Origin: Clostridia bacterium
Lineage (GTDB): Bacteria; Bacillota; Clostridia; UMGS1883; UMGS1540
NCBI GenBank assembly: GCA_045533905.1
Contig: JAZSIR010000001.1
Coordinates: forward strand, 81,982-145,981
Reading direction: 5' to 3'
Length of the DNA stretch: 64,000 bases
Shown here: in pieces, positions 3,202-45,474 of the stretch
Layout of the letters: the number at the start of each line of letters is the position of its first letter
Position numbering within the stretch: the stretch's first letter is position 1
Position numbers and translations under genes: made by a program
Notes under the pieces: model-generated
Database searches by the model: none
The model's input: the letters and a program-made list of their open reading frames with translations, nothing else
What the model was told of the DNA's origin: nothing

Positions 3202-4203
3202 CTACATAAGTCCCATACACCAGATGACAACGAGTGCCGTAAGCGTTACAAGCGTATCAATGGTGATTCCGTAAAACATCGGCGCAAGGCCTGCCTTCTT
3301 AAAATCGGCAATGCTTGTGCCAAGGCCGATGGCCGCCAGTGCCGTCACCATCAGAAACTTACTTGCGCTCTTCATAAGGCCTGAAAGTTCTGCAGGAATC
3401 ATACCGACACTGTTTGCAACCGCAAGCGCCAGAAAGCCGCCGATGAACCAGGGGATGATTTTCATAAGATTGACCTTTTTGCCACCGCTTTCGGCTTGGA
3501 GTTCTTTCTGCTTTATACGGGTGCCGATATAGGCAAACACCAAAACGGTGGGAATGATGGCGATTGTGCGGGTGAGCTTCACCATCGTGGCAAAATCGCC
3601 TGCGGCCTCCGAAAATGCATAGCCGGAGGCAACCACGCTTGCCGTGTCATTTACCGATGTGCCTGCCCAGATGCCATAGGCAATATCGCTCATACCGAGA
3701 ACTTTTCCCATAATCGGATACAGGGCAATCATCACCATATCGAAGAGAAAAGTAGAGGATAGTGCAAAGGCGATATCCTTATCGTCGGCGTCAATGACGG
3801 GGGCAATCGCCGCCACCGCAGAGCCGCCACAGATGCCTGTCCCTGCCGAAATCAAATTGCCGAGCTTCCAGTTGAGCCCGAAGAGCCTGCGGACAAAATA
3901 GCCGCCACCGAAGCACATTGCAAAGGTAAACAGCATTACGAAAAAAGTCATTTTGCCGACAGACATAATCGTACCGACAGAAAGGGATGCGCCGAGAAGG
4001 ATGATGGCACCTTTCAAGATTCTTTTAGAGGTGAATTTGAGCGCCGGCTTTATCCAGTCCGGATGGAAAAAGCTATTGAGGATCGTGCCCATAAACAGGG
4101 CAATGATGGATGCGCCAAGAAGCTCGCCCGGAATGATGCGCTCGAGCCAGATGGATAAAACTGCAACCAGCATACAGATTGCAATCCCCGAGATAACTAC
4201 CAT
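3202..4203 (-). CDS. YeiH-family (putative sulfate exporter, UPF0324) membrane protein
   Basis: GTGICGGSAVAA, GIWAGTSVND, KLTR motifs; multiple TM helices. Confidence 0.9.
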   Translation of the reverse strand: MVVISGIAICMLVAVLSIWLERIIPGELLGASIIALFMGTILNSFFHPDWIKPALKFTSKRILKGAIILLGASLSVGTIMSVGKMTFFVMLFTFAMCFGGGYFVRRLFGLNWKLGNLISAGTGICGGSAVAAIAPVIDADDKDIAFALSSTFLFDMVMIALYPIMGKVLGMSDIAYGIWAGTSVNDTASVVASGYAFSEAAGDFATMVKLTRTIAIIPTVLVFAYIGTRIKQKELQAESGGKKVNLMKIIPWFIGGFLALAVANSVGMIPAELSGLMKSASKFLMVTALAAIGLGTSIADFKKAGLAPMFYGITIDTLVTLTALVVIWCMGLM

Positions 4204-4250
4204 TGTTTTTTTTATTTTGTCTTCTCTCCTTTCAGCACCGGTATGTTAAT

Positions 4251-4445
4251 TCATATGCATATAAATCTTTTACTTCTGCATACATCATTTTTGAAAAGCT
4301 CTGCTCTTATAAACCGATACAGTTTAGACCGCAAGCCTTGCGCCGGCGACCATAATATATATGTACCGGAATAAACGGAAATGGCATTTGCCATATCTGC
4401 CGCCAGATATACGCCTGCGGCACCGCTCCATCCGAAATAGACATC
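4251..4445 (-). pseudogene. 3' remnant of a beta-lactamase-family serine hydrolase, truncated at junction repeat
   Basis: Manual translation DVYFGWSGAAGVYLAADMANAISVY...SPAQGLRSKLY...stop; same FGWSGA.G motif as intact 7973-9097 gene; no start codon. Confidence 0.65.
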
Positions 4446-4523
4446 CTTTATATAAAGACTGTATAATCTGGATGCCGGTCTTTTTAGCTGCGGTTGTTAC
4501 TACAACCACATTAGGTGTAAACT
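4446..4523. repeat. Junction site A (31 bp CTTTATATAAAGACTGTATAATCTGGATGCC) plus tail and degenerate second unit
   Basis: 4446-4476 identical to 6549-6579; near-identical to 22524-22548; tail GTCTTTTTAGC shared with 7148-7158. Confidence 0.9.
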
Positions 4524-6525
4524 ATAGTTTGCCCAATATTTTTATTGCATAATATAACGCCCAGTCCTGATCGTTCGCAAAGCTATCATATTTATGACCT
4601 GATGCGACACCCGGTCTCATATGTGCGTTCTCATATCCTGCTACGGAAGAATACTGCATTACCTTATACGGAACCAGATATCCGGCAGAAGCAAAACCAT
4701 TTTCGAAATAAACGCAAAGATTGTTCTTTACTACAGCCTCCGCATACTCCCTATACGCACTTTCAAATCCACACTTATATAGGAAATCATATGTTTCAGC
4801 AGACAATGCACATAGCCATTGGGGCATAGTATCACCATAAGTTTTGCTTTTCCCAAACCAATACAAATCCCAGTAGCGAACAGCATTCATATTTACGTGA
4901 TAATCAGGTTGCCTTGCAAAAAACGCATTTGATTTTTCGATGAATCCTGGTGCCATTTCAAGATATTTTTTATCACCTGAAAGCATATATGCCTGACACA
5001 AAATATTCACTTTGCCATTGAACATAAACTGCGTACATTTCACTTCTTCAGAAAAACATTTACTGCCGTCTCTTATAATTCTTTCTGCGTGAACAAGGGT
5101 ATGATGTATAAGTCTTTCCCTGAGTTCATGCAAGCCTTCTGCCTGAAGTAATTCGCATATTTCGTATGTTCTTATGCATGGGGATTCCTGCTCTCCTCCC
5201 CGTACCTTTTCATAATACGAAACCATAGTACGCGCAGAAATTTCAAGACATTCCTTTTCTTTTGTAAGCAAATACCATTCAAGATAATACACAGCCATCC
5301 ACGGATAATTATATGCACGCTTCCATTTATCATCGCGATTTACGCCGTTGTATACGGTTGCAGTGTCTTTATCAAAAATTTCCCTTTCAATGAACCTTCG
5401 GTGTTTAATCAAGGATTTCATCATAGTTTCATCGTATCTTTTTTGCAAAGCCTGTGCCACTACAACCCCCATTGACAATCTTTCACGGCACGCATTGTTG
5501 TCCTGAAAACACTCATCATAATATAGCTTGTCTGTGTCTCTGTCATAAATAAGGTATGCACCGTCAAGACAACTCCCCGATCTGTGATATTGTTGTTTTG
5601 TTGTGATAAACTCAGCTCTTTTTATAACAATTTCATCAAGCGGTAATAATATATTTATTTTTAACCATAATAATTTACCATTTACCGACAAATAAATCGT
5701 TCTTTCTCCAGGAGTCTTGAAGGAATGTGTCCATTTTGCTTTGTTTCCGAATTTAGTGTACTTTATTTCTTTATCTTCACATACAATTTTCAAATCATCC
5801 CAACAATCAAGACTATCAAACTCGCATTCAACAGCTTCGTCTATAAAAGCACTGTATTTATTTGCAATTATTTTCATCCTGGAAAACTCATTCAATATTC
5901 CCTCGTCCGGAGCTATATTGTCGAAACGAAATACAAATGACAAAGTTATACTTTCTCCCGGTGCAACTACAATATCACCCGGATGCAACACTATATCACC
6001 ACGGTAACTCGCGCCTACCTTTACGCGGCTCACATCGTAGCTGATGCTGTAATCAGCTATTCCTCCTTTGACTATGTTACATACAAGGTAAGGTTTTATA
6101 CCGCTCGGTTTCGCTGAATACATCCACGCGCCATCTCCACCACACCAGACGTGTGTTATGCACGAATTATTATGCAAATTGGTTTTGTTCTCAAATGTAC
6201 AGTTATAAGGAAAGTGTATTCCCAGATTATCTTTTGTAAAAAAGTATTCAGAGCAATTATTATTTGTTATGCAGTAGCACTCTGTATATATCCCGTTTTT
6301 TACTCTTTTATTAACACATAATTCGAGCGATTGATTTTCCGAATACACATCAATACCATCTTCTGCATTCATTACCCGATAATTCTCAAAGCCGATAACC
6401 TTTCCCCAATCTGAATTTTCTAAAATCCAGTTAAATCCATATTCATCATCCGGATTATATATCGCTGTGGTATAGCCATTAACTTCATCGAATGCAACAC
6501 AAATTTTACCATCATTATACTTCAT
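4522..6525 (-). CDS. Six-hairpin glycosidase-like hypothetical protein (AT-rich cassette)
   Basis: 667 aa; N..RERL.MG, R.YNYPW, RYWD.YWFGK...YGDT.P, ANDQDWALY motifs. Confidence 0.7.
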   Translation of the reverse strand: MKYNDGKICVAFDEVNGYTTAIYNPDDEYGFNWILENSDWGKVIGFENYRVMNAEDGIDVYSENQSLELCVNKRVKNGIYTECYCITNNNCSEYFFTKDNLGIHFPYNCTFENKTNLHNNSCITHVWCGGDGAWMYSAKPSGIKPYLVCNIVKGGIADYSISYDVSRVKVGASYRGDIVLHPGDIVVAPGESITLSFVFRFDNIAPDEGILNEFSRMKIIANKYSAFIDEAVECEFDSLDCWDDLKIVCEDKEIKYTKFGNKAKWTHSFKTPGERTIYLSVNGKLLWLKINILLPLDEIVIKRAEFITTKQQYHRSGSCLDGAYLIYDRDTDKLYYDECFQDNNACRERLSMGVVVAQALQKRYDETMMKSLIKHRRFIEREIFDKDTATVYNGVNRDDKWKRAYNYPWMAVYYLEWYLLTKEKECLEISARTMVSYYEKVRGGEQESPCIRTYEICELLQAEGLHELRERLIHHTLVHAERIIRDGSKCFSEEVKCTQFMFNGKVNILCQAYMLSGDKKYLEMAPGFIEKSNAFFARQPDYHVNMNAVRYWDLYWFGKSKTYGDTMPQWLCALSAETYDFLYKCGFESAYREYAEAVVKNNLCVYFENGFASAGYLVPYKVMQYSSVAGYENAHMRPGVASGHKYDSFANDQDWALYYAIKILGKL

Positions 6526-6548
6526 ATCTATACACTCCTTTTGAAATT

Positions 6549-6619
6549 CTTTATATAAAGACTGTATAATCTGGATGCCACTTTTTATGTTTATTGCGAC
6601 ACATAAGGTTTAGATGCAA
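6549..6619. repeat. Tandem junction sites B (6549-6579) and C (6593-6619)
   Basis: B identical to 4446-4476; C ATTGCGACACATAAGGTTTAGATGCAA nearly identical to 7121-7147 and 7165-7191. Confidence 0.9.
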
Positions 6620-6627
6620 CTTTTCAA

Positions 6628-6688
6628 AGGCTCCCTTGAGGCTCCCTTGTGTAAAGGGAGCTGTCAGCGAAGCTGACTGAGGGATTGT
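6628..6688. repeat. REP-like double hairpin (left copy) with 11 bp tandem duplication
   Basis: GCTCCCTT-gtgta-AAGGGAGC and GTCAGC-gaa-GCTGAC hairpins; inverted homolog of 7035-7088; AGGCTCCCTTG duplicated. Confidence 0.85.
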
Positions 6689-7032
6689 TTCACTACATTA
6701 TCTATAAACATACAAACTCCATCAAAGTTTTTCAAAACATCAAGATTTGATATTCGGATAACTTTTATCCCATATTGTTCTAAATAAGCAGTTCTTTTTT
6801 CATCATTGAAAAGCCCGTCATCTTCGTAGTGTTGCGAACCATCTAACTCTATAACAACATTTGCTTTTGCGCAATAGAAGTCTGCTATATATTTACCTAA
6901 CACCTTTTGCCTTGTAAACTTTATAGGATAACTTCTTAAAAAATCATACCAAAGATGTCTTTCTTCTTTAGTCATATTTTTTCTAAGTTCCTTTGCAAAT
7001 GGAACTATTTTATTATTATGTTTTCTATCCAT
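6664..7032 (-). CDS. DUF559 / Vsr-like PD-(D/E)xK endonuclease
   Basis: AKELRKNMTKEE..LW, F.RQ...G.YIADFYC, IELDGSQH, D..R..YL...GI.VIR..N. Confidence 0.92.
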   Translation of the reverse strand: MDRKHNNKIVPFAKELRKNMTKEERHLWYDFLRSYPIKFTRQKVLGKYIADFYCAKANVVIELDGSQHYEDDGLFNDEKRTAYLEQYGIKVIRISNLDVLKNFDGVCMFIDNVVKQSLSQLR

Positions 7033-7034
7033 TT

Positions 7035-7088
7035 ACAACCCCTCCGAGTTTGCTTCGCAAACTCACCTCCCCTTGCACAGGGGAGGCT
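7035..7088. repeat. REP-like double hairpin (right copy, inverted)
   Basis: GAGTTTGC-ttc-GCAAACTC and CCTCCCCT-tgcac-AGGGGAGG hairpins. Confidence 0.85.
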
Positions 7089-7096
7089 TTTTCCTT

Positions 7097-7113
7097 TTCG
7101 TCATATTTCGACA
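7097..7113 (-). promoter_or_regulatory. Tandem Spo0A boxes (TGNCGAA x2)
   Basis: Minus strand TGTCGAA-ata-TGACGAA upstream of DUF559 gene. Confidence 0.55.
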
Positions 7114-7120
7114 TCTTTAC

Positions 7121-7226
7121 ATTGCGAGGCATAAGGTTTAGATGCAAGTCTTTTTAGCATAGCGAATGCGACATATAAGGTTTAGATGCAAACCTTTTTG
7201 GTGGCTGTTAATATCAAGACATATAA
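7121..7226. repeat. Tandem junction sites D (7121-7147), E (7165-7191) and partial F
   Basis: Core ATAAGGTTTAGATGCAA repeated at 44 bp period; GACATATAA recurs at about 7218-7226. Confidence 0.88.
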
Positions 7227-7238
7227 ATAAATTGGAAT

Positions 7239-7889
7239 TTACTTAACTGCCTTTAGCGTATAAGTTGCTCCCCAATGGTTCAAAACTTCGACCGCAGAAA
7301 ACCCTGCTTCAAGTAATGCTTCCGTTTCATGCTTTACGGTAAGAGGTGTATCGTAATGATAGAATTCATCATCACAAATACCTTGTTCTGCTTTCAATGC
7401 TGACAAATTCCGTCTGTGCATCTGTTCTTCTTCATCGGATAATGAAAAATAATCCGTAAGGATAAAACATCCCTTATCCTTTATTGCCGTATGTAGTTTA
7501 GAGTATAACGCAATCTTTGCTTCTTTTCTGAAATGATGCAGACTCTCCACCGATACCGCTGCATCGAATACGTTCTCGCCCAAAGGCACATTAAAATACG
7601 AGCCGAGTATCAAGGTTATATCCTTGCCCACGAATTTACGCTTGAGTTCGGCTAACATTCCTTGCGAGAGGTCAATTCCTGTAACCTTTGCTAACGGATT
7701 CTGCGTATAGTATTCTTGAAGTTCTAATCCCGTGCCACAGCCCAAATCAAGCACGTGGCAGTTTTCAGTGGTCGGCAATTGTTTTGCTGTAAAGGGATAG
7801 AATTCGTTTGCGGATTCGATGTTGGTCATCATATGCTCATCGTATCCATCAAGTCTTGCTTCAAAAAAATCGCTCATTTTTTCAAGCAT
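7239..7889 (-). CDS. Class I SAM-dependent methyltransferase
   Basis: VLDLGCGTG, GIDLS..ML, FDAAVS..SLHH. Confidence 0.92.
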   Translation of the reverse strand: MLEKMSDFFEARLDGYDEHMMTNIESANEFYPFTAKQLPTTENCHVLDLGCGTGLELQEYYTQNPLAKVTGIDLSQGMLAELKRKFVGKDITLILGSYFNVPLGENVFDAAVSVESLHHFRKEAKIALYSKLHTAIKDKGCFILTDYFSLSDEEEQMHRRNLSALKAEQGICDDEFYHYDTPLTVKHETEALLEAGFSAVEVLNHWGATYTLKAVK

Positions 7890-7920
7890 ACATAACCTCC
7901 TACAAATTCTTATTTATCTG

Positions 7921-7937
7921 TTCGACATTTTTCGACA
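7921..7937 (-). promoter_or_regulatory. Tandem Spo0A boxes (TGTCGAA x2)
   Basis: Minus strand TGTCGAA-aaa-TGTCGAA, 32 bp upstream of methyltransferase ATG. Confidence 0.6.
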
Positions 7938-7972
7938 TATCAATAATACTTGCGTTAAGTTAATGGCAAAAA

Positions 7973-9097
7973 TCAATATATCATTGCATTAAATACAGCC
8001 TCTTCAAATCGACGTGCTGAACTATTTCCTGCTCCTCCATCAAATCTGGAGTTTTTCATAAATACTGCGCAAATATCATTTTTAGGATCTACCCAAAAGT
8101 GAGATCCATAAGCTCCACTCCACCCAAAACTTCCAACAGATAAATGCGGATATTCCTCATCCGTGATAACACGCACACCTAACCCCCATTTTTGATAGCC
8201 CGGCATAATTTTTTCCGACACATAGGCTTTTGAAAGCTTGTTGATTGCCTGTTCAGATACAATTCGATTATTGTTTATTTCCCCTTTATTTAAAAGCATT
8301 TGTGCAAAGTTTGAATAATCATCTAGTGTGGACACCAATCCGGCACCTGCAAGCCTGTGTTCACAAGGAAATCTTTCAAACACACACCCGGAATAAGTTA
8401 TACCAATATCATTTTTTTCATCAACTTTGTTATGCATCATCATAAGCTGTTTCCATTGTTTTTCCGTTGGTGAAAAAGTTGTGTTTAACATATTGCACGG
8501 AACAAAAATTTCATTTTTCAAAAAAGTTTCATAGTCTTGTTTTGTTACATATTCAACAATCGCCGCAAGCACATCAAAAGCGGCAAACGCACTATATGCT
8601 TGCTTTGTAAATGGTTCAAAATCCAGTCCTGCGTTTATATAACACTTTACTGTATTTGAAATAGTTTCCCTATCATCCTCAGACATAGCAATAATCTTAT
8701 CACTACCAAATCCGGATGTATGTGTCAAGCAATGTAAAATTGTTACCGGTGTTTTTGTTTTTCCTAAATCTGCGCCATCGGAAGTTATAACATGTATATC
8801 TTCAAATTCAGGGATATATTTACTAACAGGTTCATCAAGAGAAATCAATCCTCTATCAACCAAAATCAGTATTGCCACTGCTGTTATTGGTTTTGTCATC
8901 GAAGCAAGACGATATATCGTGGTGTCATCCACCTGTTCTTTACCATCAATGCTTGTATGCCCAAAATGTTTCTTCAATACCACTTCGCCATTCTGATATA
9001 CAAAATAAGATGATCCAAACAAATTATTGTTTGTTAAATCAAATGTTGCAATTTTCTCAACATTGTGTTTGAGTTTTTCTTTGTTCAACAGTCTCAT
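7973..9097 (-). CDS. Serine hydrolase, beta-lactamase/class C-like family (cytoplasmic, likely esterase)
   Basis: ASMTK (SxxK), LTHTSG, YS, GAGLVST, FGWSGAYG; no signal peptide. Confidence 0.9.
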   Translation of the reverse strand: MRLLNKEKLKHNVEKIATFDLTNNNLFGSSYFVYQNGEVVLKKHFGHTSIDGKEQVDDTTIYRLASMTKPITAVAILILVDRGLISLDEPVSKYIPEFEDIHVITSDGADLGKTKTPVTILHCLTHTSGFGSDKIIAMSEDDRETISNTVKCYINAGLDFEPFTKQAYSAFAAFDVLAAIVEYVTKQDYETFLKNEIFVPCNMLNTTFSPTEKQWKQLMMMHNKVDEKNDIGITYSGCVFERFPCEHRLAGAGLVSTLDDYSNFAQMLLNKGEINNNRIVSEQAINKLSKAYVSEKIMPGYQKWGLGVRVITDEEYPHLSVGSFGWSGAYGSHFWVDPKNDICAVFMKNSRFDGGAGNSSARRFEEAVFNAMIY

Positions 9098-9200
9098 GTT
9101 TTGTTTCTCCTTTTATTTACTAAAAAATGTTGTTAATAGTTCATATAAACTTATGTCTAAAAAATGTATAAACAAATTTTAAGTTATCTCCGGACATCTA

Positions 9201-10049
9201 TCAATACAGCCCCACATCCACAAAAACCGGCGAATGATCAGACAAAGGTAGGTAATAATCCGGGGTATACCGTTCAAAACGATGCACAAAACCTGCCGGT
9301 GAAAATTTCACCATAATATGATCTATTCCTTTTTCAAACGGTGCTCTCACATAAGGCTTGTAGCCATCGCCAAAACAATAGTGGTAGCCCCAATCCTGGT
9401 CAGCAAAATCCGTGGCAATATCGTGGGCGTGTGCATAACCTCTGCTTAGCGCATTTTGAATTACAGAGCTTGTGTATCTTGCGTTAAAATCGCCCACCAA
9501 AACCACAGGACAGTTGTATATGTTATGAAATTTCTCCAGACGGTCCATTGCCATGTTCAGTTGGTAAACTCTCGCCTCATCAGAACCTGCCTGATAGTTT
9601 TTTGAATCAGAACTACCACTCATCCACCAAAGATGGGTAGTCATAAAAACAAGCTTTTTCCCGTCTGTTTTATCTTGAAACACAGCACAGCACCATGATT
9701 TTGTTCCGTTGTTGTTGAATTCGCCATCCCAGCCCGGAACTTCCGTAGGGTACATCAAAAAATCAGAATCCAACAGCTCCAGTCGCTCCTGACGATACAG
9801 TACCGGAGTATCTTTACCCCACAGCAAGGCATAACAATACCCCTGCTCCAACAGCCCCTGAATAATATGATCAGACATAACATGTGACATTTCTTGGAAA
9901 CCAATGATGTCGGGCTGTGTATCAGCATAAACCCGTACCATCCCCTTTGCCCTTGCAATCGCAGAACAATCTTCTCCTTTTATTTCCCATGCAGGGAGAT
10001 TGTTGTCACACTTCCAAACATTGTGACTCATAATACGCAACTTCCCCAT
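9201..10049 (-). CDS. Endonuclease/exonuclease/phosphatase (EEP) family protein
   Basis: MSHNV, DIIGFQE, TH, GDFN, IDHI, SDHSPV. Confidence 0.92.
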   Translation of the reverse strand: MGKLRIMSHNVWKCDNNLPAWEIKGEDCSAIARAKGMVRVYADTQPDIIGFQEMSHVMSDHIIQGLLEQGYCYALLWGKDTPVLYRQERLELLDSDFLMYPTEVPGWDGEFNNNGTKSWCCAVFQDKTDGKKLVFMTTHLWWMSGSSDSKNYQAGSDEARVYQLNMAMDRLEKFHNIYNCPVVLVGDFNARYTSSVIQNALSRGYAHAHDIATDFADQDWGYHYCFGDGYKPYVRAPFEKGIDHIMVKFSPAGFVHRFERYTPDYYLPLSDHSPVFVDVGLY

Positions 10050-10129
10050 AAAAATTCCTCCAATAATTTTTTGATATGTGTAAAAAAACACTTTGACTTT
10101 CAATATATTTTGATATATTCACTCTATAA

Positions 10130-10144
10130 ACTCGTGTTAAGTCA
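10130..10144. repeat. Junction site ACTCGTGTTAAGTCA
   Basis: 14/15 identical to 44012-44026. Confidence 0.7.
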
Positions 10145-10157
10145 AAAGCGAAAAACA

Positions 10158-10243
10158 TTACCGTTCTGCATCTTCATTAAGTGTTTCAATATAAAAACTT
10201 GTCCTTCTTTCAAATCTCACGTATGCTCAATCGGATTTTCGTA
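10158..10243 (-). pseudogene. Internally deleted remnant of a TIGR04076-family gene
   Basis: Translates YENPIEHT*DLKEGQV / SFYIETLNEDAER*, matching two separated parts of the intact 45112-45438 protein. Confidence 0.8.
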
Positions 10244-10277
10244 TATAATTCGTGGCCGATTCAGTTGCGGGCACTTC

Positions 10278-12302
10278 TCAGCTAATAACAGCTTTTTTCA
10301 AAACAACAACTCCATAAGGTTTTATCATTTCTTCTTCGAAATTGCCGCTTATAATTTCATAACCGGCTGGCAAATTCACCTTCTTTTCCTCATTATTGAA
10401 ATTCATAATAAAAATGTAATTATTGTTTGAGGAATAGCGCATTGTTACGCTTACATTTTCAGGCGTTTCGAAAACCTTATCAGCTGATATAATGTCCTTA
10501 AGCCATTCTTTATACAATTTTATATACCCATCAGTCATTAAATCCGTAGCTATGTAATATGCCTTACCTTTGCCATATTCATTTACTGTTACGGCAGGCA
10601 TATCTTTATAAAAATCTTCACAGTATTTTCCTATTACCGTCGCTCCTTCGAGGTATGCAAGCTCGCAATATTTCTCACTTCGGTATGACGTACCAAACAT
10701 TTTGACAAAATTATACTGACCGTCATACAGCGAATCCGTTTCCTCCGTCTTTACACCAAGTAATTTTCGCAAAGGATAACACTCTTTATCAAAAAAGCTC
10801 AGACCATATTCATCCACAACGCCTGTTCCGAAAGTGGTTACAAAAATCCCGCCGTTTTTTACATAATCCTCGATTTTTTCTTTCAGACCATTTTTTAACA
10901 TAAAAAGCATCGGTGCAATGACAACTTTATATTTCGAGAAATCGTCATTTTCAAAAACAAAATCACAGCCTATATTAAGCTGCCACAATGCTCCGTAGTT
11001 TTTCATAAGAGTATCTGAATATCCTTTATCCTCGTCTATATTTCTGTATGCCTGCGAAATTCTCAAACTCCAGAAACTGTCGTAATCGAACAGAATCGCC
11101 ACTTCATTTCGTGTAAGTGAACTTGCAATTTCTCCAATGTTTTTGAGCTCTTCTCCCACCTCTGCAACTTCTCTGAATACTCTCGTATCCTCACTGTTAT
11201 CATGCCCGACAACAGCACCGTGGAACTGCTCGGACTGGCCTCTGCTTTTTCTCCACTGGAAATACTGAACGGTATTGCTGCCATGAGCAACCGCCTGCAT
11301 CGATGCCAAAAGGTGCATGCCCGGGCGTCTTAACCTTGAAACCGCCTGCCAGTTTGTTGCAGAAGGTGAGCTTTCCATCAACATAAACGGCTTATCCTTT
11401 TTAAATGAGTTGAACAGCGAATGAAACAATGCAGTTTCAGCTGCCTCTTTGTATTCGTTATCACTTGAATGCCATGCCGGGTAATTATCCCAAGATATAA
11501 CATCTATGCTTTTTGAAAGCTTGGCATAGTCAATTTCCCAGAATCTCATAAAATTCGTCGTAACGGGAATATCCGGATTTATTCTCTTTACTGCAGCTGC
11601 TTCGCAGTCAAGAAAATCCTGCAGCATAGAATTTTTAAACCTGACCCACTCCAGTTTAAGAGGATTGGAAGAATTTTCTCCGTGTTGCCCCGGAGGCTCA
11701 ATCTGCGAAAAGCTCTGATATGTATGCGACCAAAACCCATTCCACCATTTTTCATTAAGGCTATCTATGGTTTTATACTTATTTTCAAGCCATTTTCTGA
11801 AATTTTCACAGCACAACGGGCAATGGCAATCCCGTACATTATATTCATTGGAAATATGCCACATCAAAATACCCGGATGATTTGAATATCTTTCAGCAAG
11901 CTTTGTGTTGATTATTCTCACTTTTTCTCTGTATACAGGCGATGAATAGCAGTTGTTGTGACGGTTTCCGAATCTGTCTCTTATTCCGTCCTCCTGCACA
12001 CGTTTTACTTCCGGATATTTTTCAGCCATCCATGCAGGCATTGCACCGGACGGTGTCGCAAGTATTGTATATATACCGTTTTCATAAAGAGTATCTATAA
12101 TTTTATCAAGCCATTCGAATTCAAAAACGCCTTCCTTCGGCTCAAGCCTGGACCATGCAAAAATCCCTACCGACATAACATTACAGCCGGACTTTTTCAT
12201 CAGCTCAATATCCTTTTCAAGAACTTCAGGATAACTGAGCCATTGGTCAGGGTTATAATCACAACCGTGCCATATACCTCTTAATTTTTGATTAATGTTC
12301 AT
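10278..12302 (-). CDS. Beta-galactosidase, GH42
   Basis: GCDYNPDQW, FAWSRLEP.EG, WHISNEY, LMESSPS, EQFHGAVV. Confidence 0.95.
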   Translation of the reverse strand: MNINQKLRGIWHGCDYNPDQWLSYPEVLEKDIELMKKSGCNVMSVGIFAWSRLEPKEGVFEFEWLDKIIDTLYENGIYTILATPSGAMPAWMAEKYPEVKRVQEDGIRDRFGNRHNNCYSSPVYREKVRIINTKLAERYSNHPGILMWHISNEYNVRDCHCPLCCENFRKWLENKYKTIDSLNEKWWNGFWSHTYQSFSQIEPPGQHGENSSNPLKLEWVRFKNSMLQDFLDCEAAAVKRINPDIPVTTNFMRFWEIDYAKLSKSIDVISWDNYPAWHSSDNEYKEAAETALFHSLFNSFKKDKPFMLMESSPSATNWQAVSRLRRPGMHLLASMQAVAHGSNTVQYFQWRKSRGQSEQFHGAVVGHDNSEDTRVFREVAEVGEELKNIGEIASSLTRNEVAILFDYDSFWSLRISQAYRNIDEDKGYSDTLMKNYGALWQLNIGCDFVFENDDFSKYKVVIAPMLFMLKNGLKEKIEDYVKNGGIFVTTFGTGVVDEYGLSFFDKECYPLRKLLGVKTEETDSLYDGQYNFVKMFGTSYRSEKYCELAYLEGATVIGKYCEDFYKDMPAVTVNEYGKGKAYYIATDLMTDGYIKLYKEWLKDIISADKVFETPENVSVTMRYSSNNNYIFIMNFNNEEKKVNLPAGYEIISGNFEEEMIKPYGVVVLKKAVIS

Positions 12303-12426
12303 AAGTAGCACCTCATCCTATTATTTATAAATATGTTTTATGTAATTAAGCGACAACTACGTCACCATAAATTCTCGTTGCCGTAAGTCTCTTATCAAGT
12401 CAAGAGCAAAATCTAACTGCCCCAAA

Positions 12427-22523: not shown

Positions 22524-22562
22524 ATATAAAGACTGTATAATCTAGATGACAATCTTTTTAGC
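22524..22562. repeat. Junction site G
   Basis: ATATAAAGACTGTATAATCTAGATG (1 mismatch to sites A/B) + TCTTTTTAGC tail; marks GC-to-AT boundary. Confidence 0.88.
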
Positions 22563-22568
22563 AAGATT

Positions 22569-22790
22569 TCGTGTCAAGTCAGGCGAACAGTGAATAATAG
22601 GACCTACTACTTTTCCCTTAAATTTTCACTGTATTTTTTCTGAACAAAATCCATCAGAACCCGCAGGAATGTTAAATTTTCCTGCTCCGATAGTATATGT
22701 AAATATTTAAAATCGGCAAACTACCATATTTAATTATATTGATTTGCACAAGCAAAAACATAATAGAATAACCTACCATGTTTGCAAAAA
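22569..22790. mobile_element. Non-coding repeated element (MITE-like), shorter copy
   Basis: Colinear with 44012-44317; starts TCGTGTCAAGTCAGG; right IR degenerate; lacks ~70 bp internal segment. Confidence 0.75.
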
Positions 22791-22806
22791 AATACGTTTT
22801 TTGAAG

Positions 22807-24552
22807 TTATACGGCTCCTAAATCAGGTTTATCAACAAACAAAACCTCTTGTTTTCCCTTTATGCCATCTGATTCAAATAAAACTATTTCATTTTCTCCT
22901 TTTTTTAATACCGAAGCGGGAACATACAAGGTTTTCTGCGGTCCTTTGTCCCAATATCTGCCAAGATTAAAACCATTTATCATTACAAAACCTTTAGTAA
23001 AATTTTCTGTATTTAAGAATGTATCGCATGGAACATCAACTTCAAACACTCCTCTATAAAACGCAGATGGTTCTTCCACTACATCTTTGGAATACAAAAC
23101 ATGGTCTATATTCTCCATAGGCAATGGATACACATCCCAGTTGAAATGAATTTTTCCATTTAGCATACATCTGCCGGCTATACCTTTTTTACGACTCATT
23201 TTAGGTCCAAAATTTGTTCTGCCCATATTTTCACAAAGAACTGTGAGCACATCCCCACGACTTGCTGTAATCTCAATTTTTAATTCTTCATCATTTATAT
23301 AAACAATCCCAACAAGGTTTCTATTAATATAAATCTGTGCTCTGTCACCAAGACTTTCAAACTCTAATTTTGCACCTTTATAATCACGATTCAACCGTGT
23401 GCAATATGCAACATATCCATATCCTTGTCCGTATTTTTCCATACACTTGGGAACTTCAGAATGTATTGGAGAAGAAAGTCTTTCTAGATTATCAAAAATA
23501 CCTCCTACTTCCGTAAGCTCTACCTTTCCGTATTCTTTTTTAGGTCTGTTCGGCGGAACTTCCGGAAGAACTCCGTCAATATATTTTTTCACCACATCAC
23601 GGACTGCATAATATTTAGGAGTAACATCTCCACATTCAGATAATAGTGCATCATAATCATAACTTGTCACATCAGGAGCAAACTTTTCATAATGATTTGC
23701 TCCGCTTGTAAATCCAAAATTTGTTCCACCTATGAACATATACATATTGAGGCTTCCCTTTTTAAGCATATCTTCTACAACTTCTGCATACTTTTCTGCA
23801 GATGTGCAATGATGTTTTTCATCTCCCCAGGCATCAAACCAACCACACCACATTTCCATACACATTTTAGGCGCATCGGGAAAAAGTTCATCATGAGCCA
23901 TAAAATTTTCTTCAACACGACTGCCGAAATTAAGCGTAGCAAAGCAACCTTCTATCATTCCGTCTAAAAGGCTTTCTTTTGAACTGCCATCTGAAGTAAA
24001 AAGTGGAATGTCTATTTCCTGTTCCCGGTAAAAATCACACAAATACTTAAGATATTCCTTATCGTCACCATAGTAACCATATTCGTTTTCACACTGCATC
24101 ATTATAACAGGGCCACCATTTGTACACAGATACGGTCTTACCTCGTCAAATAGCTTCTTAAGATAATTGCTGAAACACTTTATATAATACGGATTGGAAC
24201 AACGTATTTCCATTTCTTCATTTTCCTGTATCCACCAGGGCAATCCGCCGAATTCCCATTCCGCGCAGATATATGGTCCCGGGCGTACGATAACCATAAG
24301 TCCCTCTTCACCTGCTTTTTTGATAAAATCTGATATATTGAGATTTCCTGAAAAATCAAATTCTCCTTGCTTTTTTTCATGCATATTCCATGCGCAGTAT
24401 GTTTCAACACAGTTACAACCCAAGGCTTTCATTTTTTTGAAAATATCAGTCCATGTGTCAGACATATTGCGGAAATAATGTACAGCACCTGATATTATCT
24501 TTATAGGTTTCCCATCCCTATAAAACTGATTACCTTTAATCTCAAAAACCAT
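22807..24552 (-). CDS. Beta-galactosidase, GH35 (AT-rich cassette)
   Basis: SGAVHYFR, RPGPYICAEWEFGGLP.W, ENEYG, YMFIGGTNFG, TSYDYDA. Confidence 0.95.
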   Translation of the reverse strand: MVFEIKGNQFYRDGKPIKIISGAVHYFRNMSDTWTDIFKKMKALGCNCVETYCAWNMHEKKQGEFDFSGNLNISDFIKKAGEEGLMVIVRPGPYICAEWEFGGLPWWIQENEEMEIRCSNPYYIKCFSNYLKKLFDEVRPYLCTNGGPVIMMQCENEYGYYGDDKEYLKYLCDFYREQEIDIPLFTSDGSSKESLLDGMIEGCFATLNFGSRVEENFMAHDELFPDAPKMCMEMWCGWFDAWGDEKHHCTSAEKYAEVVEDMLKKGSLNMYMFIGGTNFGFTSGANHYEKFAPDVTSYDYDALLSECGDVTPKYYAVRDVVKKYIDGVLPEVPPNRPKKEYGKVELTEVGGIFDNLERLSSPIHSEVPKCMEKYGQGYGYVAYCTRLNRDYKGAKLEFESLGDRAQIYINRNLVGIVYINDEELKIEITASRGDVLTVLCENMGRTNFGPKMSRKKGIAGRCMLNGKIHFNWDVYPLPMENIDHVLYSKDVVEEPSAFYRGVFEVDVPCDTFLNTENFTKGFVMINGFNLGRYWDKGPQKTLYVPASVLKKGENEIVLFESDGIKGKQEVLFVDKPDLGAV

Positions 24553-24689
24553 AATTTTGTCTCCTATCTTAAATCAACTATCATTTCAAATATTAAAATT
24601 TAACATAACTCACTCTTGGCTCATGTCAATTCAGGAGTAAAAAATCATATAATCATTATTCAAAAGTTATCGTTTACAAGCTATTCAAA

Positions 24690-25196
24690 TTACACGATTT
24701 CTATTTGCACTGCCTTCATAGCCTCAAGTGCTGTTTTGTGACTTTCGACACTAACTCCTGCACAGCACTTGCCATCAACAACTATTTTTGTTTCAGGAAA
24801 GCTCGCTTTTAATATCATAGCGTTTGAAATTACGCAAATATCTGTACACAATCCGCACAATTCTATTTCATCTATCTCATCGCCATAATCTTTCAGTATT
24901 CCTGGCAAATCGACACTTCCAAATGTAATTTTATTAACAACATCATTAGCATAAGCCTTAAGTTCATCACAAATCTGCCAACCATCAGTATCTTTAATAC
25001 AATGCTCTACCGGAAGATTTTTGCCTTCCTGTGTCTTCATATAGTCTTCAAAATGTGTATCTCTTGTAAATATAATTTTACCATCAAAATTTTTAACCTT
25101 TTCAACTACATCCGGCACAATTTTCTCAGCAAGCACACTACCCAGACTGCCTGTTATAAAATCATTTTGCATATCAACTACAATTAAATACTTCAT
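24690..25196 (-). CDS. Isochorismatase-family cysteine hydrolase (nicotinamidase-like)
   Basis: VVDMQNDF, TRDTH, HC, K.TFG, GLCTDICV. Confidence 0.92.
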   Translation of the reverse strand: MKYLIVVDMQNDFITGSLGSVLAEKIVPDVVEKVKNFDGKIIFTRDTHFEDYMKTQEGKNLPVEHCIKDTDGWQICDELKAYANDVVNKITFGSVDLPGILKDYGDEIDEIELCGLCTDICVISNAMILKASFPETKIVVDGKCCAGVSVESHKTALEAMKAVQIEIV

Positions 25197-25292
25197 TTTC
25201 TTCTCTCCTTTTTAGGATATAATCCGAGTTATCCAAACATCAAGTTACGAATAAAATCCAAGAAACGTATTCTGTATACGGGCAGGAAGTCT

Positions 25293-33567: not shown

Positions 33568-33682
33568 TTTTTTGCCTCCCAAAGTATATTTTTTTAATTT
33601 AACATAGTAAAAGCCACCTTGGCTTTCAAGGCGGCTCCGGATCCTTTGCATTAAAACAGCAATGCACTGACTGCTATTCCTT

Positions 33683-33855
33683 GCTCCGTCCTTTTGCCTG
33701 AGAGATTAGCCCGTAAAGAGCTTTACACCTTCGGCATCCTTTTGGCTTCTCTAAAGAAGCCGGACTTCTCCGGAGTGCTATCCACGTGCAGTCTCTACTA
33801 AAAGCGCCTGAGAGCATTACTCCTTCGGCAAGGCTAACGCCTTTCTCCTGCACAC
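33683..33855 (-). promoter_or_regulatory. Tandem glycine riboswitch
   Basis: Two aptamers each GGAGA...CCGAAGG...CTCTCAGG; hairpin at 33612-33636 downstream; canonical context upstream of AlsT. Confidence 0.93.
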
Positions 33856-43127: not shown

Positions 43128-43969
43128 TTACTGCCGTTCCTGTTCGAGTATGGTATGTAACTTTTTCGCCAAGTGCGCAAACCCCTCGTCATTTGGATGC
43201 AGGCCGTAATCTGCAAAGAATTTTACATCATGGGGAATTAGGTCAGAGCCGGAAATGAAAGTAATATTCGGGATAGTCTCTACCACTTCGCGTATGTCCT
43301 TCTCCACATCTTCAAAAGCGCCAAAGGCTCTTTTTTCATCCTTGTCGCTTCGCCACAGCGGAGAGATGGCGAAGATTTTCGACTCTGTATACTTCTTCGC
43401 CAAAAGGGAGAAAAAGCTTTCGCAAAGCGTTGCCACGTAGCGCTTTGCGGGGTGCAAAGCATCAAATCCCTGCGTTATGGAATCACCAAACGCCATGAGC
43501 TTCTTTTTGGGGCGCACAGCTTCGACAAACGCACCGTCATCCAGCGAAATTTCTTCTATCCATGTTTTGACCGACCACGGAAGGTGCACCACTACATGCC
43601 TTATGCCGTCTGAAAGCGTAAAACACTTTGCAAATTCGCCGTTTTCACATAGTCACGCGGCATTTCCATATGCGAGAAATTGTCAAGACTTCCTAAAAGC
43701 GTGTCATCTACCACAACGTCCACGGCAAAATACTGCCGAAGGGCAGGAATGCTCTCGGTCTTAATTTTCAGTTTCAGGGTTTTGCTGTCTGTTCTAAAGA
43801 AAAATTTCACGCCTGCGGGGCAAAGCGCCTTTTGGTACAGTCCCTCGTTTATAGCCCTATACATTTCTTCCTCCGCGGCGGTACATCTTCGAAAAGACAG
43901 TCCCGAAGCCTCTTCTATGCGTACTGCACCGAGGGTGATTTCCTTTATTTTTTCGTAATGGAGTTTCAT
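43128..43969 (-). pseudogene. SGNH hydrolase pseudogene (frameshift plus internal deletion)
   Basis: Two ORFs join via frameshift near 43645 (NGEFAKCFTLSDGIRHVVVHLPW); GDSITQG and LHPND present but blocks II-III (G..., GTND) missing. Confidence 0.75.
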
Positions 43970-44011
43970 AGTTCTACTTCCTATGCTCTTTTGCGGCAAC
44001 TTATGCGTTAG

Positions 44012-44317
44012 ACTCGTGTCAAGTCAGGAGAACAGTGAATAATAAGAACCATCACGAAATATAACGAAATCAAAGATTTCTATATTTCGGAGAACCTTGA
44101 TACTCGCAAGCTCGTATTAGGACCTACTAACTTTTCCCTATTTTTTCAACTGTTTTTCTTTTAACACTTTTCCTTAGAACCCGCGAGAATACTGGATTTT
44201 CTCGCTCCCGATAGTATATATAAATATTTAAAATCGTCAAACTAATCTTTTAAATTGTATGGACTTGACACGAGTAATTCTATTCCCAAACAACATAACC
44301 GTACCTTTGTTTCAAAT
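44012..44317. mobile_element. Non-coding repeated element (MITE-like) with 14 bp perfect inverted repeats
   Basis: ACTCGTGTCAAGTC (44012-44025) / GACTTGACACGAGT (44262-44275); homologous to 22569-22790. Confidence 0.8.
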
Positions 44318-44344
44318 ACCCTTGTTTCCCTTTAAAACAGGTCA

Positions 44345-45028
44345 TTACTCTGCAATTTTTAAGCCATCATTAAAATAATCTATAATTTGTTGTTCGTATT
44401 TTACAATATCTAACTCAGGTGATAGTTCAATAACTCTTGAGTATGAGTCAATAGATGAACTATTTAATTCGTAAATGCCATCATTTAAGTATTCCTGTAA
44501 AAGTTGGGATAATGTTTGATACATATGCGTTAATTCACCATGAAGAACAACACCTACTTGCCATGCTTCATCTTCAGGAATATTAGAAAGTATACCATCT
44601 AGCTTTTGATCATACAAATATATTTGAGTAAGATACAAATTTATATTTTCATCGAAAAGAAACCGATTTTGAGAAGTAAACTGATGAAATTTAGTTGCCC
44701 ATTCTCCAAATGTATTATGATCTTTTAAAATAGTACAACAACTACTAACTGAACCATTATATCCAACTAAATTTTGTGCCAAATCAGATTCATTTGTTTG
44801 AAACACCAATATTGGCTCTTGAACAATTTCTAACAATTCAGTAGTTACATCAATCTTTTTTTCAGCAACTTTTGCTCTTAATTTTATTTGTTCGACTTTT
44901 TTTGTACTGTTAATATCAATGATATCAGCTATATAAAAGCCAAGAAAAAGTTCTATAATAATAAGCATACAAGAAATTGTAACCTTAAAAATTTTACTAT
45001 TAGCCAGAATTTCAACTATCTTTCTCAT
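44345..45028 (-). CDS. Hypothetical protein, single N-terminal TM (very AT-rich cassette)
   Basis: 227 aa ORF with AGGAG RBS; no recognised motif. Confidence 0.7.
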   Translation of the reverse strand: MRKIVEILANSKIFKVTISCMLIIIELFLGFYIADIIDINSTKKVEQIKLRAKVAEKKIDVTTELLEIVQEPILVFQTNESDLAQNLVGYNGSVSSCCTILKDHNTFGEWATKFHQFTSQNRFLFDENINLYLTQIYLYDQKLDGILSNIPEDEAWQVGVVLHGELTHMYQTLSQLLQEYLNDGIYELNSSSIDSYSRVIELSPELDIVKYEQQIIDYFNDGLKIAE

Positions 45029-45071
45029 CAGTTATTTCTCCTTTTTCTTCTGAAATTTACTCTCAACATTT

Positions 45072-45100
45072 TTCGACACAATTCGACTTTTGTCAAGTCG
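45072..45100 (-). promoter_or_regulatory. Tandem Spo0A-like boxes overlapping junction site / -35 hexamer
   Basis: Minus strand GACTTGACA-aa-AGTCGAA-ttg-TGTCGAA. Confidence 0.5.
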
Positions 45101-45111
45101 GGACTAAAAAA

Positions 45112-45438
45112 CTACTCGTTTTCCGCATCTTCATCCAGTGCTTCGAGGTAAAAACTTACGGGTCTAAATCCGTCATTGCACGAAATCATAGCCGATTTGG
45201 GGTTTTTCATCCATCCGTCGTAGAAATTCTGACCGCCATGCGCCAAAGCCATCACAAAAGGAGACATGCTTTCCCAAGCACTGTTACAAAGTCCATGAGG
45301 TTTTTCCCAGCCGTTTGCAATAAAGACTTGTCCTTCGCTTAAATCACAGGCGTGTTCTATTGGGTTTTCATATTTTTCTATCAAATCATCATACCGTGCC
45401 ATTCGGACTACGGTAATTTTACATTTCTTCATACCCAT
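45112..45438 (-). CDS. TIGR04076 family protein
   Basis: KITV, C...EGQVF, KP.GLC..AW, SCNDGFRPV.F.LE. Confidence 0.88.
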   Translation of the reverse strand: MGMKKCKITVVRMARYDDLIEKYENPIEHACDLSEGQVFIANGWEKPHGLCNSAWESMSPFVMALAHGGQNFYDGWMKNPKSAMISCNDGFRPVSFYLEALDEDAENE

Positions 45439-45474
45439 TCGCCTTCCTTAAAACTAAAATTACGGACGTTTTTC

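What the first reader, a model, noticed from the sequence alone, without database searches (positions are those of the whole stretch)
4446..12420. Candidate integron-like cassette-capture system: AT-rich island of single-gene cassettes separated by recurring sites, no recombinase in cis
Seen: six functionally unrelated AT-rich genes (six-hairpin glycosidase-like, DUF559, methyltransferase, serine hydrolase, EEP, GH42) with a recurring motif at essentially every junction; the same motif families bound two other islands (22524-25290, 44012-45110); gene remnants abut the sites; no integrase/transposase in 64 kb. Established: integrons and Xer/pdif modules build arrays of this kind, but these sites are not attC-type (no GTTRRRY/RYYYAAC boxes seen). 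Inference: a site-specific recombinase acting in trans adds/removes cassettes at several chromosomal loci, here largely CAZyme/hydrolase cargo.
Basis: partly seen in the sequence, partly recalled or inferred. Interest (0 to 1): 0.85.

Follow-up and report, generated by a model that had tools for sequence, protein, structure and literature searches.

The report
Serine-recombinase gene-cassette arrays in gut Clostridia
The foreign genes here are interchangeable one-gene cassettes joined at conserved DNA sites; the same sites build arrays at several chromosome positions in many herbivore-gut Clostridia, and they are likely recombined by large serine recombinases carried on visiting elements, which would make this an integron-like gene-swapping system built on a different enzyme.

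Summary
All seven junctions of 4446-12420 carry conserved sites (A/B arms ending in TAGATGC, and E), all on one strand. Profiles trained only on other genomes find them, with few or no control hits. Contigs from eight other gut studies share single cassettes at up to about 99% identity and diverge at these sites; the EEP cassette ends at 10124-10128 in 6 of 8 runs. The A site occurs in 63 of 401 Clostridia genomes. The sites are not attC, Xer or IS256 ends. D-A junctions are symmetric about a TA dinucleotide. Two large serine recombinase (LSR) clades head such arrays elsewhere, starting exactly at E sites. Sister LSRs start at tRNA CCA ends or -10-like boxes, and the A/B sites mimic the tRNA T-loop-to-CCA register. 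This genome lacks both clades, so any enzyme acts in trans. That link is inferred and untested. Cargo is broad, not mainly CAZymes. Nine paper searches found no description. This scan noted similar LSR arrays before, at other sites and in other taxa. Verdict: a new, delocalised variant of LSR tandem accretion that works like an integron.

The parts
4241..4442 (-). Remnant (3' part) of a serine-hydrolase cassette gene, cut off next to the first A site
   Evidence: tblastn 65% over 52 aa to a cassette gene in G082
4451..4476 (+). A site: TA core, 16-nt arm, TGGATGCC; followed by a T-rich spacer
   Evidence: PWM 48.7 bits; exact repeat of 6554
4522..6525 (-). Cassette 1: six-hairpin glycosidase-like protein, 667 aa
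   Evidence: Atlas features 0.99; no Pfam hit
6554..6579 (+). A site
   Evidence: PWM 50.5 bits; 11 contigs in one run carry a D arm before 6548
6593..6618 (+). B site (16-nt arm plus TAGATGCA)
   Evidence: PWM 46.8 bits
6639..7092 (-). DUF559 gene (6664-7032) inside its own REP-like inverted-repeat unit; separately mobile, here nested in the array
   Evidence: Same ends at 6639/7092 in many relatives with no A/B/E site nearby; run X4 joins 6580 to 7175 without it
7094..7146 (+). D arm (TTCGACA repeats) joined to a B site
7165..7190 (+). B site, followed by a spacer and a degenerate E
   Evidence: run X1 has an intact E between 7155 and 7219
7229..7916 (-). Cassette: class I SAM methyltransferase (7239-7889), flanked by AAATTnnnATTT-type (F) sites of a separate family
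   Evidence: Pfam; homology to G013 and G085 ends at the F sites
7918..7975 (+). D-E junction
   Evidence: PWM D 17.5, E 17.1; other-sample contig starts at 7945
7973..9097 (-). Cassette: serine hydrolase (beta-lactamase fold)
   Evidence: Pfam; in run X10 it is followed after 9137 by a B site instead of E
9136..9165 (+). E site
   Evidence: PWM 20.3 bits; contigs of X1, X2 and X4 diverge at 9136
9201..10103 (-). Cassette: EEP-family phosphoesterase
   Evidence: Pfam; near-identical copies spanning 9136-10128 in other samples
10127..10158 (+). E site; crossover directly after TA 10127-10128
   Evidence: 6 of 8 runs diverge at 10124-10128
10151..10270 (-). Internally deleted remnant of the 45112-45438 gene family, cut at its 5' side by a degenerate C-type arm at 10244-10270
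   Evidence: (repeat D10)
10278..12311 (-). Cassette: GH42 beta-galactosidase
   Evidence: Pfam
12385..12416 (+). Upstream-most E site, directly behind the stop of the cyclase-family gene
   Evidence: PWM 16.8-25.3 bits
22525..22750 (+). Island 2 left end: A site, spacer, E site and a G-type element
22807..25196 (-). Island 2 cassettes: GH35 (22807-24552) and isochorismatase family (24690-25196), with an E site at 24616
44012..44275 (.). G element: 264 bp bounded by 14-bp inverted E repeats; a long cassette-end form that recurs in tandem in relatives
   Evidence: 43 of 87 genomes; fold z -4.1
44345..45438 (-). Island 3 cassettes: 227-aa unknown; D-E junction at 45060-45110; 108-aa gene that is itself a cassette
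   Evidence: G004 lacks 43987-45448 here and has the 108-aa gene elsewhere beside a weak E

Best explanation
The island is a stack of one-gene cassettes joined at conserved sites, and it was likely built by large serine recombinases (LSRs) acting in trans from visiting mobile units. SHOWN: each cassette starts with a D arm (or another start), carries one gene, and ends in E and/or a spacer plus an A/B/C arm. Neighbouring cassettes meet at a 2-bp core, mostly TA, about which D-A junctions are inverted repeats. Cassettes recur in other samples with different neighbours and break at that core. Units with the same boundaries carry a Recombinase-domain ORF plus an LSR (two clades, called LSR517 and LSR538 here). 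INFERRED: a cassette would excise as a circle whose junction (end arm, core, start arm) is an attP-like site. The circle would integrate at an attB-like target. On the gene strand the A/B/C end copies the spacing of a tRNA 3' end (T-loop-like box, 13 nt, then CCA or ATA/AAT), so each insertion would recreate a target and arrays would grow. One LSR517 subclade uses real tRNA CCA ends. Sister subclades use E sites or -10-like promoter boxes, which would seed arrays at many loci away from tRNAs. How cassettes cross between cells is unknown.
For: Breakpoints. The EEP cassette's right end is at 10124-10128 with unlike DNA beyond in 6 of 8 runs from 8 studies; its left end at 9136 has unlike DNA beyond in 3 of 8. 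The serine-hydrolase cassette is followed by B in X10. G012 has one cassette more than G019 at an orthologous locus, and homology resumes at GATGCC. Polarity. The gene left of an A site is on the opposite strand in 106 of 119 cases, and the gene to the right in 110 of 115; E gives 89 of 97 and 96 of 99. Symmetry. 9.75 of 14 matches about a 2-bp TA core, against 2.9-4.9 for eight other registers, n=65. LSR link. 3 of 3 LSR538 units start at an E site and head arrays, and an LSR-less copy of that start abuts an A site. Of 19 LSR517-clade unit starts, 8 follow a tRNA-like CCA, 1 a CCA-type site, 5 an E site (one is an LSR-deleted remnant), 4 a -10-like box and 1 something else. Target class follows LSR subclade on the tree (supports 0.975-1.0). 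Downstream TAGATGC-type sites occur in 7 of 12 clade loci against 1 of 10 control LSR loci. An E site lies upstream in 1 of 70 other LSR rows, 58 of them with 1 kb or more upstream. 9 of 9 genomes with an LSR517-clade hit carry A sites, against 63 of 401 overall (genomes are not independent). LSR domains and the RVS serine motif are intact.
Against: No activity was measured and no circle was seen. This 95.5%-complete genome has neither clade (best 37-39%), and in the order each clade was found in only 2 of 87 genomes, although sites are common. The two clades are not sisters, so LSR units could be passengers. Most single-gene cassettes begin with D, not with an LSR-unit start. E is one base out of the tRNA register, and B and some E junctions have AT rather than TA. 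The upstream-most E beside GC-rich genes (cyclase) is unexplained; 0 of 7 cyclase homologues have a 3' E. The empty locus in G004 differs from the predicted junction by about 20 bp. A looser CCA-type pattern also hit 3 of the 10 control loci. Unrelated triple-LSR units also sit near arrays in L128 and L319.
Confidence: 0.68

Rival explanations
1. The arrays are real, but another enzyme (a host Xer-like tyrosine recombinase or an unidentified transposase) moves the cassettes, and the LSR-bearing units are only passengers that land in the same hotspots.
For: Two unrelated LSR clades abut E. Both clades are rare next to the sites. The genome has two chromosomal Xer-like genes. D-E spacing is odd (15 nt in 40 cases), which would also fit a 7-bp tyrosine-recombinase overlap. 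E loosely resembles a XerD arm (recalled, not tested against a real dif).
Against: 0 of 30 tyrosine-recombinase loci from five site-rich genomes carry a site within 1.5 kb. One unit start is used with tRNA ends by one LSR subclade and with E by another, so the target follows the LSR, not the unit end. D-A symmetry is about two bases. The sites are patchy across taxa, whereas Xer is near-universal.
Confidence: 0.16
2. The arrays are decayed relics of LSR elements (cis-mobilizable elements), and single cassettes are now swapped only by homologous recombination between the repeated sites or by hitch-hiking.
For: There are LSR-deleted derivatives (L173, L045), gene remnants and degenerate sites. 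No cognate LSR is present in this genome.
Against: Breakpoints cluster at one base (10128 in 5 runs) at the edge of the shared sequence, not across it. Cassettes are about 99% identical between samples with different neighbours. Sites stay conserved across 34 genera.
Confidence: 0.1
3. The sites are ends of a DDE insertion sequence (IS256-like or similar), and the cassettes are transposase-less mobile insertion cassettes; the G element would be its miniature form.
For: G has 14-bp terminal inverted repeats. D-A junctions form the two best sigma70-like promoters in the region, 11 of 12 matches, like IS circle-junction promoters. A and E resemble IS256 ends (recalled).
Against: 0 of 30 IS256/mutator loci from the order carry a site, and none was found in this genome. 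No target duplication flanks G. None of the 12 ORFs that read inward from a site looks like a transposase by eye (not scanned against Pfam). Cassettes are bounded by direct, not inverted, site copies.
Confidence: 0.04

Closest known systems
Dehalococcoides ssrA genomic islands (McMurdie et al. 2011, PMC3146451; passages read)
   Same: Tandem islands at a tRNA-like 3' end; an LSR (DsiB) with a smaller partner at the head of the unit; many units lack the integration module.
   Different: There the target is one gene, insertion is in the T-loop, and a 20-bp direct repeat of ssrA is left. Here units start after CCA, the regenerated site is only a register mimic, units are mostly single genes, and arrays lie at many non-tRNA loci.
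SCC/SCCmec composite islands (CcrAB/CcrC; as summarised in PMC3146451, otherwise recalled)
   Same: LSR-driven stacking of cassettes, some without recombinase.
   Different: SCC has a single fixed target and multi-gene elements. The LSR here is not shown to be a Ccr homologue.
CIMEs and tandem accretion of ICEs/IMEs in Firmicutes (PMC5704250; passages read)
   Same: Integrase-less units keep att sites and accrete in tandem.
   Different: CIMEs are decayed ICEs/IMEs at the end of a target gene. Here there is a standardised one-gene cassette format shared across many families; no relaxase was seen beside the LSR in the units annotated.
Integrons and CALINs (Cury et al. 2016, PMC4889954; passages read)
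   Same: Co-oriented arrays of one-gene cassettes, each carrying one site; arrays without an enzyme in cis. That paper found no complete integrons in Firmicutes.
   Different: No IntI, no attC boxes and no attC-like hairpin; the inferred chemistry is serine, double-stranded, with a 2-bp core.
Multi-targeting LSRs (Durrant et al. 2022, PMC10083194; passages read)
   Same: Related LSRs insert at several unrelated targets around a central dinucleotide.
   Different: No DUF4368 in LSR517 or LSR538. Targets here are intergenic (tRNA ends, cassette ends, -10-like boxes); 'tRNA' does not occur in that paper's main text, and its supplements were not read.

Membership tests
Integron / CALIN | IntI tyrosine integrase beside the array | tested here: not met
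   None in the window; the genome's 5 tyrosine recombinases lie elsewhere
Integron / CALIN | attC with RYYYAAC ... GTTRRRY boxes | tested here: not met
   No pair in 12 of 12 junctions, on either strand; IntegronFinder itself could not be run
Integron / CALIN | Site folds as a single-stranded hairpin | tested here: not met
   9 junctions give z from -1.55 to +0.55, one strand folded; only the G element folds (z -4.1), and it lacks an attC box pair
Integron / CALIN | Co-oriented one-gene cassettes, one site each, variable order | tested here: met
SCC / ssrA-GI type LSR islands | Large serine recombinase at the head of autonomous units | tested here: met
   In other genomes: L121, L446, L447, L393, L406; not in this genome
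SCC / ssrA-GI type LSR islands | One fixed target gene | tested here: not met
   At least 5 arrays at unrelated loci in G000; tRNA, E and -10-like targets
SCC / ssrA-GI type LSR islands | 15-20 bp direct repeat of the target's 3' end | tested here: not met
   Only the register and a few bases match tRNA ends
SCC / ssrA-GI type LSR islands | LSR-catalysed excision and integration | not testable with these tools
   Needs an assay
CIME | Keeps att sites but lacks integrase and transfer genes | tested here: met
CIME | Derived by decay of an ICE/IME | tested here: inconclusive
   Two LSR-less derivatives seen (L173, L045); most cassettes have a D start not traced to an autonomous unit
Xer/pdif modules | 11-6-11 dif-like site with inverted arms | tested here: not met
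   D-A symmetry is about 2 bp; the genome's own dif was not identified
IS256-family mobile insertion cassettes | Ends shared with a cognate transposase element; target duplication | tested here: not met
   0 of 30 loci; no duplication around G
Multi-targeting LSR clade (Durrant 2022) | DUF4368 domain (63% of that clade) | tested here: not met

The most novel reading that the evidence does not exclude
Herbivore-gut Clostridia run a delocalised 'serine integron': a community-wide pool of standardised one-gene cassettes whose ends mimic a tRNA 3' end. LSR lineages retargeted from tRNA CCA ends to cassette ends and to host -10 promoter boxes, so arrays are seeded anywhere, sit behind a host promoter, and can turn neighbouring host genes into new cassettes.
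Probability: 0.4. Interest if true: 0.86.

Novelty: new variant of a known kind. Interest (0 to 1): 0.7.

Why it matters
A survey found no complete integrons in Firmicutes (PMC4889954). This system would fill that role with a different chemistry, across at least 34 genera of Clostridia, and would explain the patchy single-gene content and poor synteny of these gut genomes. It gives a testable case of recombinase retargeting, from tRNA end to self-made mimic to promoter box. It names enzymes and sites that can be assayed directly, and it offers a route for cassette genesis, which is still an open question for integrons. Cargo includes carbohydrate-active enzymes, transporters and defence-like genes.

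Tried and rejected
Rfam found only a glycine riboswitch, so the sites are not a known RNA family. Viral contigs gave no match for A or for two E patterns and one B match at a contig end; plasmids gave none. Clustering 1,377 ORFs from loci L043 onward showed no recombinase or transposase family that routinely neighbours the sites; only scattered LSRs and DUF559 recurred. The triple-LSR units beside arrays in L128 and L319 are 23-28% identical to the candidate LSRs and were set aside as neighbours. A recalled likeness to Tn554 junctions found no supporting paper. A dif search was uninformative. The Y1 transposase hit is one broken fragment in G000, and 0 of 4 Y1 loci carry sites. The Y2 search rang in no control genome, so it shows nothing. 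The test for -10-box seeding at D arms was negative, 2 of 22: promoter targeting rests only on the four LSR-unit starts. Orthologous empty loci were mostly unavailable because yeiH, the cyclase and the FAD oxidoreductase change neighbours. No circle junction was seen in contigs, which cannot show absence. The maximum-likelihood tree did not finish, so FastTree was used. Nine paper searches found no description of these sites; subscription journals are not covered and no supplements were read.


Full report
OBSERVATION. The window lies on contig C11 of a 1.57-Mb, 95.5%-complete genome. Named records that carry the same sites are nearly all Clostridia. Region 4446-12420 is 38% GC against about 50% beside it. 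It holds six minus-strand genes: a six-hairpin glycosidase-like protein, DUF559, a methyltransferase, a serine hydrolase, an EEP protein and GH42. I trained weight matrices for three motifs on other genomes only and scanned this genome. At 14 bits or more they gave 6, 6 and 13 hits for A, B and E, against 0, 0 and 1 on the reversed genome. The strong hits fall at gene junctions of five AT-rich arrays (three in the window, one each on C1 and C18), plus a lone A on C17. All seven junctions of the island carry a site, all on the + strand. Two gene remnants abut sites. No attC box pair occurs in 12 junctions, and nine junctions fold no better than shuffles.

ANATOMY. Read on the + strand, a junction starts at a gene's 5' end. 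Next comes a D arm (two TTCGACA-like repeats 10 nt apart, then TCYTTA), then a 2-3-nt core, then one of three left ends. A is TAAAGACTGTATAATC plus TAGATGCC. B and C are other 16-nt arms plus TAGATGC. E is a TGTCAAGT box with an A-tail. A, B and C are often followed by a T-rich spacer and then E, with 22-23 nt from GATGC to the E core in 94 cases. The D-to-E spacing is 15 nt in 40 cases. In 65 D-A junctions the best inverted symmetry is about the 2-bp TA: 9.75 of 14, against 2.9-4.9 for other registers (the rows were selected for TATAAAG). Flanking genes lie on the opposite strand in 106 of 119 and 110 of 115 cases for A, and sites are inside an ORF in only 5 of 275 cases. The G element (44012-44275) has E at both ends, inverted. 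It occurs in 43 of 87 genomes of the order, up to six times in a row at cassette junctions. Two other mobile layers are nested in the island. The DUF559 unit keeps its own ends (6639/7092) in many relatives without A/B/E sites. The methyltransferase shares F-type ends with copies in G013 and G085.

MOBILITY. Twenty gut runs from 13 studies hold 21-30% of the island's words, that is, parts of it. I laid 8 of them. The EEP cassette is near-identical (for example 3 differences in 993 nt). It ends at 10128 with unlike DNA beyond in X3, X4, X6, X7 and X14, and at 10124 in X2; the pieces in X1 and X10 stop earlier. In X7 the next bases begin a different E. Its other end is at 9136 with unlike DNA in X1, X2 and X4; contigs simply end there in X6 and X14. 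In X10 the serine-hydrolase cassette is followed by a B site instead of E, and X4 joins A directly to B without the DUF559 unit. G012 carries one more cassette than G019 at an orthologous locus, with homology resuming at GATGCC. Against this, G004 lacks island 3, but its junction is about 20 bp off the site.

DISTRIBUTION. The A pattern (up to 2 mismatches) is in 29 of 61 relatives and in 63 of 401 genomes of the class, 34 of 216 genera, with the reversed pattern in 3. Exact matches number about 280 stretches among 185,579 genomes. The 80 listed loci are nearly all Clostridia MAGs; where a source is named it is goat, sheep, yak, buffalo, deer or faeces. Cargo is broad.

THE ENZYME. This genome has five tyrosine recombinases and four LSR catalytic domains, none flanked by the sites. 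Among site-bearing loci, one unit (L121) held a Recombinase-only ORF plus a 538-aa LSR, with E at its start and A plus E at its far end. Two more members of this LSR538 clade (84% identical; G057, G082) start exactly at an E site and head arrays with four or more further D/B/A/E junctions, at different loci and with different cargo. An LSR-less copy of the same start abuts an A site in G012. A second clade, LSR517 (Recombinase-only ORF, KilA-N ORF, LSR), is more informative. Of 19 unit starts read, 8 follow the CCA of a tRNA-like 3' end (Met and Asn by ARAGORN; L337 and L338 are near-duplicates; one looks like tmRNA, from recall). One follows a CCA-type TAGATGC site, 5 follow E (one of them LSR-deleted), 4 follow a -10-like box and 1 follows something else. 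On a FastTree of 88 LSRs the full-length members split into E, -10 and tRNA subclades (supports 0.975, 0.978, 1.0). LSR538 lies elsewhere on a long branch. TAGATGC-type sites lie downstream in 7 of 12 clade loci with at least 5 kb of flank, against 1 of 10 control LSR loci. Four more clade loci share a conserved CCA-type arm, but the loose pattern also hit three controls. E lies upstream of 1 of 70 other LSR rows. No site lies within 1.5 kb of 30 IS256, 30 tyrosine-recombinase or 4 Y1 loci. All 9 sampled genomes with an LSR517-clade hit have A sites; shared habitat could contribute.

MECHANISM. On the gene strand, tRNA targets read T-loop, 13 nt, CCA. The cassette ends read GC-ATCYARA, 13 nt, then CCA (tRNA-linked type), ATA (A) or AAT (B): the same register. 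This genome also has two CCA-type sites 3-4 kb behind tRNA clusters. I infer that a unit's far end supplies a substitute left half-target, so each integration regenerates a target and arrays grow, and that directly repeated sites let single cassettes excise as circles. E is a second target type, one base out of register. Shown: sites, polarity, breakpoints and LSR units with the same boundaries. Inferred: catalysis by these LSRs, circles, and seeding at promoters (four cases; a wider test was negative). Unknown: the transfer route, the autonomous parent of the D start, and why an E sits behind the cyclase gene when 0 of 7 homologues have one. Neither clade is in this genome, and each was found in 2 of 87 genomes of the order, so the arrays here would depend on visitors.

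COMPARISON. It works like an integron but is not one. By enzyme and accretion it is closest to Dehalococcoides ssrA islands (PMC3146451), SCC and CIMEs (PMC5704250), but it lacks their single target and direct repeat. I read passages of these two papers, of PMC4889954 and of PMC10083194, and only listings and abstract starts of the others. Nine searches found no description of these sites. Earlier unchecked notes of this scan describe LSR cassette arrays at rlmD, ppdK and spoIVB in gut Clostridia (one spoIVB array is in this genome) and at tRNA mimics in CPR bacteria. A sequence look-up for this site found nothing. I reached the LSR and tRNA-register reading before seeing those notes.

VERDICT. 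The arrays are real, mobile and widespread. They are a new, delocalised variant of LSR tandem accretion, with the enzyme assignment at about 0.7. Interest 0.70.

Noticed in passing
window 6639-7092; L079-L106: The DUF559 gene with REP-like terminal inverted repeats behaves as its own mobile unit, with gene-less miniature forms. Several other repeat units also land in the spacer behind A/B sites. No mover was identified.
   Followed up: partly
window 7229-7241 and 7904-7916; L078, L080: A third site family (AAATTnnnATTT) bounds the methyltransferase and its copies in other families; probably a separate cassette system nested in this one.
   Followed up: partly
window 4438-4467 and 6541-6570 (+): D-A junctions form the two best sigma70-like promoters of the region (11 of 12), pointing antisense to the cassette genes.
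   Followed up: no
G000:C1:146408 (-) and C3:71355 (+): CCA-type TAGATGC sites 3-4 kb behind tRNA clusters, bounding AT-rich islands.
   Followed up: partly
window 3202-4203: The YeiH-family gene is 85-89% identical across different families, with different neighbours each time; probably itself recently transferred.
   Followed up: partly
window 43128-43999: An SGNH/GxDLY-like gene appears as two ORFs (154 and 132 aa); DNA 97% identical in G004.
   Followed up: no
window 33676-33783 (-): Glycine riboswitch upstream of a sodium:alanine symporter; ordinary.
   Followed up: no
L128:378-5574; L319:855-5697: Triple-LSR units end next to arrays of these sites; relation unclear.
   Followed up: partly
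L112, L147: Two short contigs binned as Alphaproteobacteria carry two A sites each; mis-binning or cross-phylum transfer.
   Followed up: no
L342, L406, L055, L048: Defence-like cargo in LSR units and arrays: TIR, DpnII restriction-modification, SLATT and HEPN domains.
   Followed up: no
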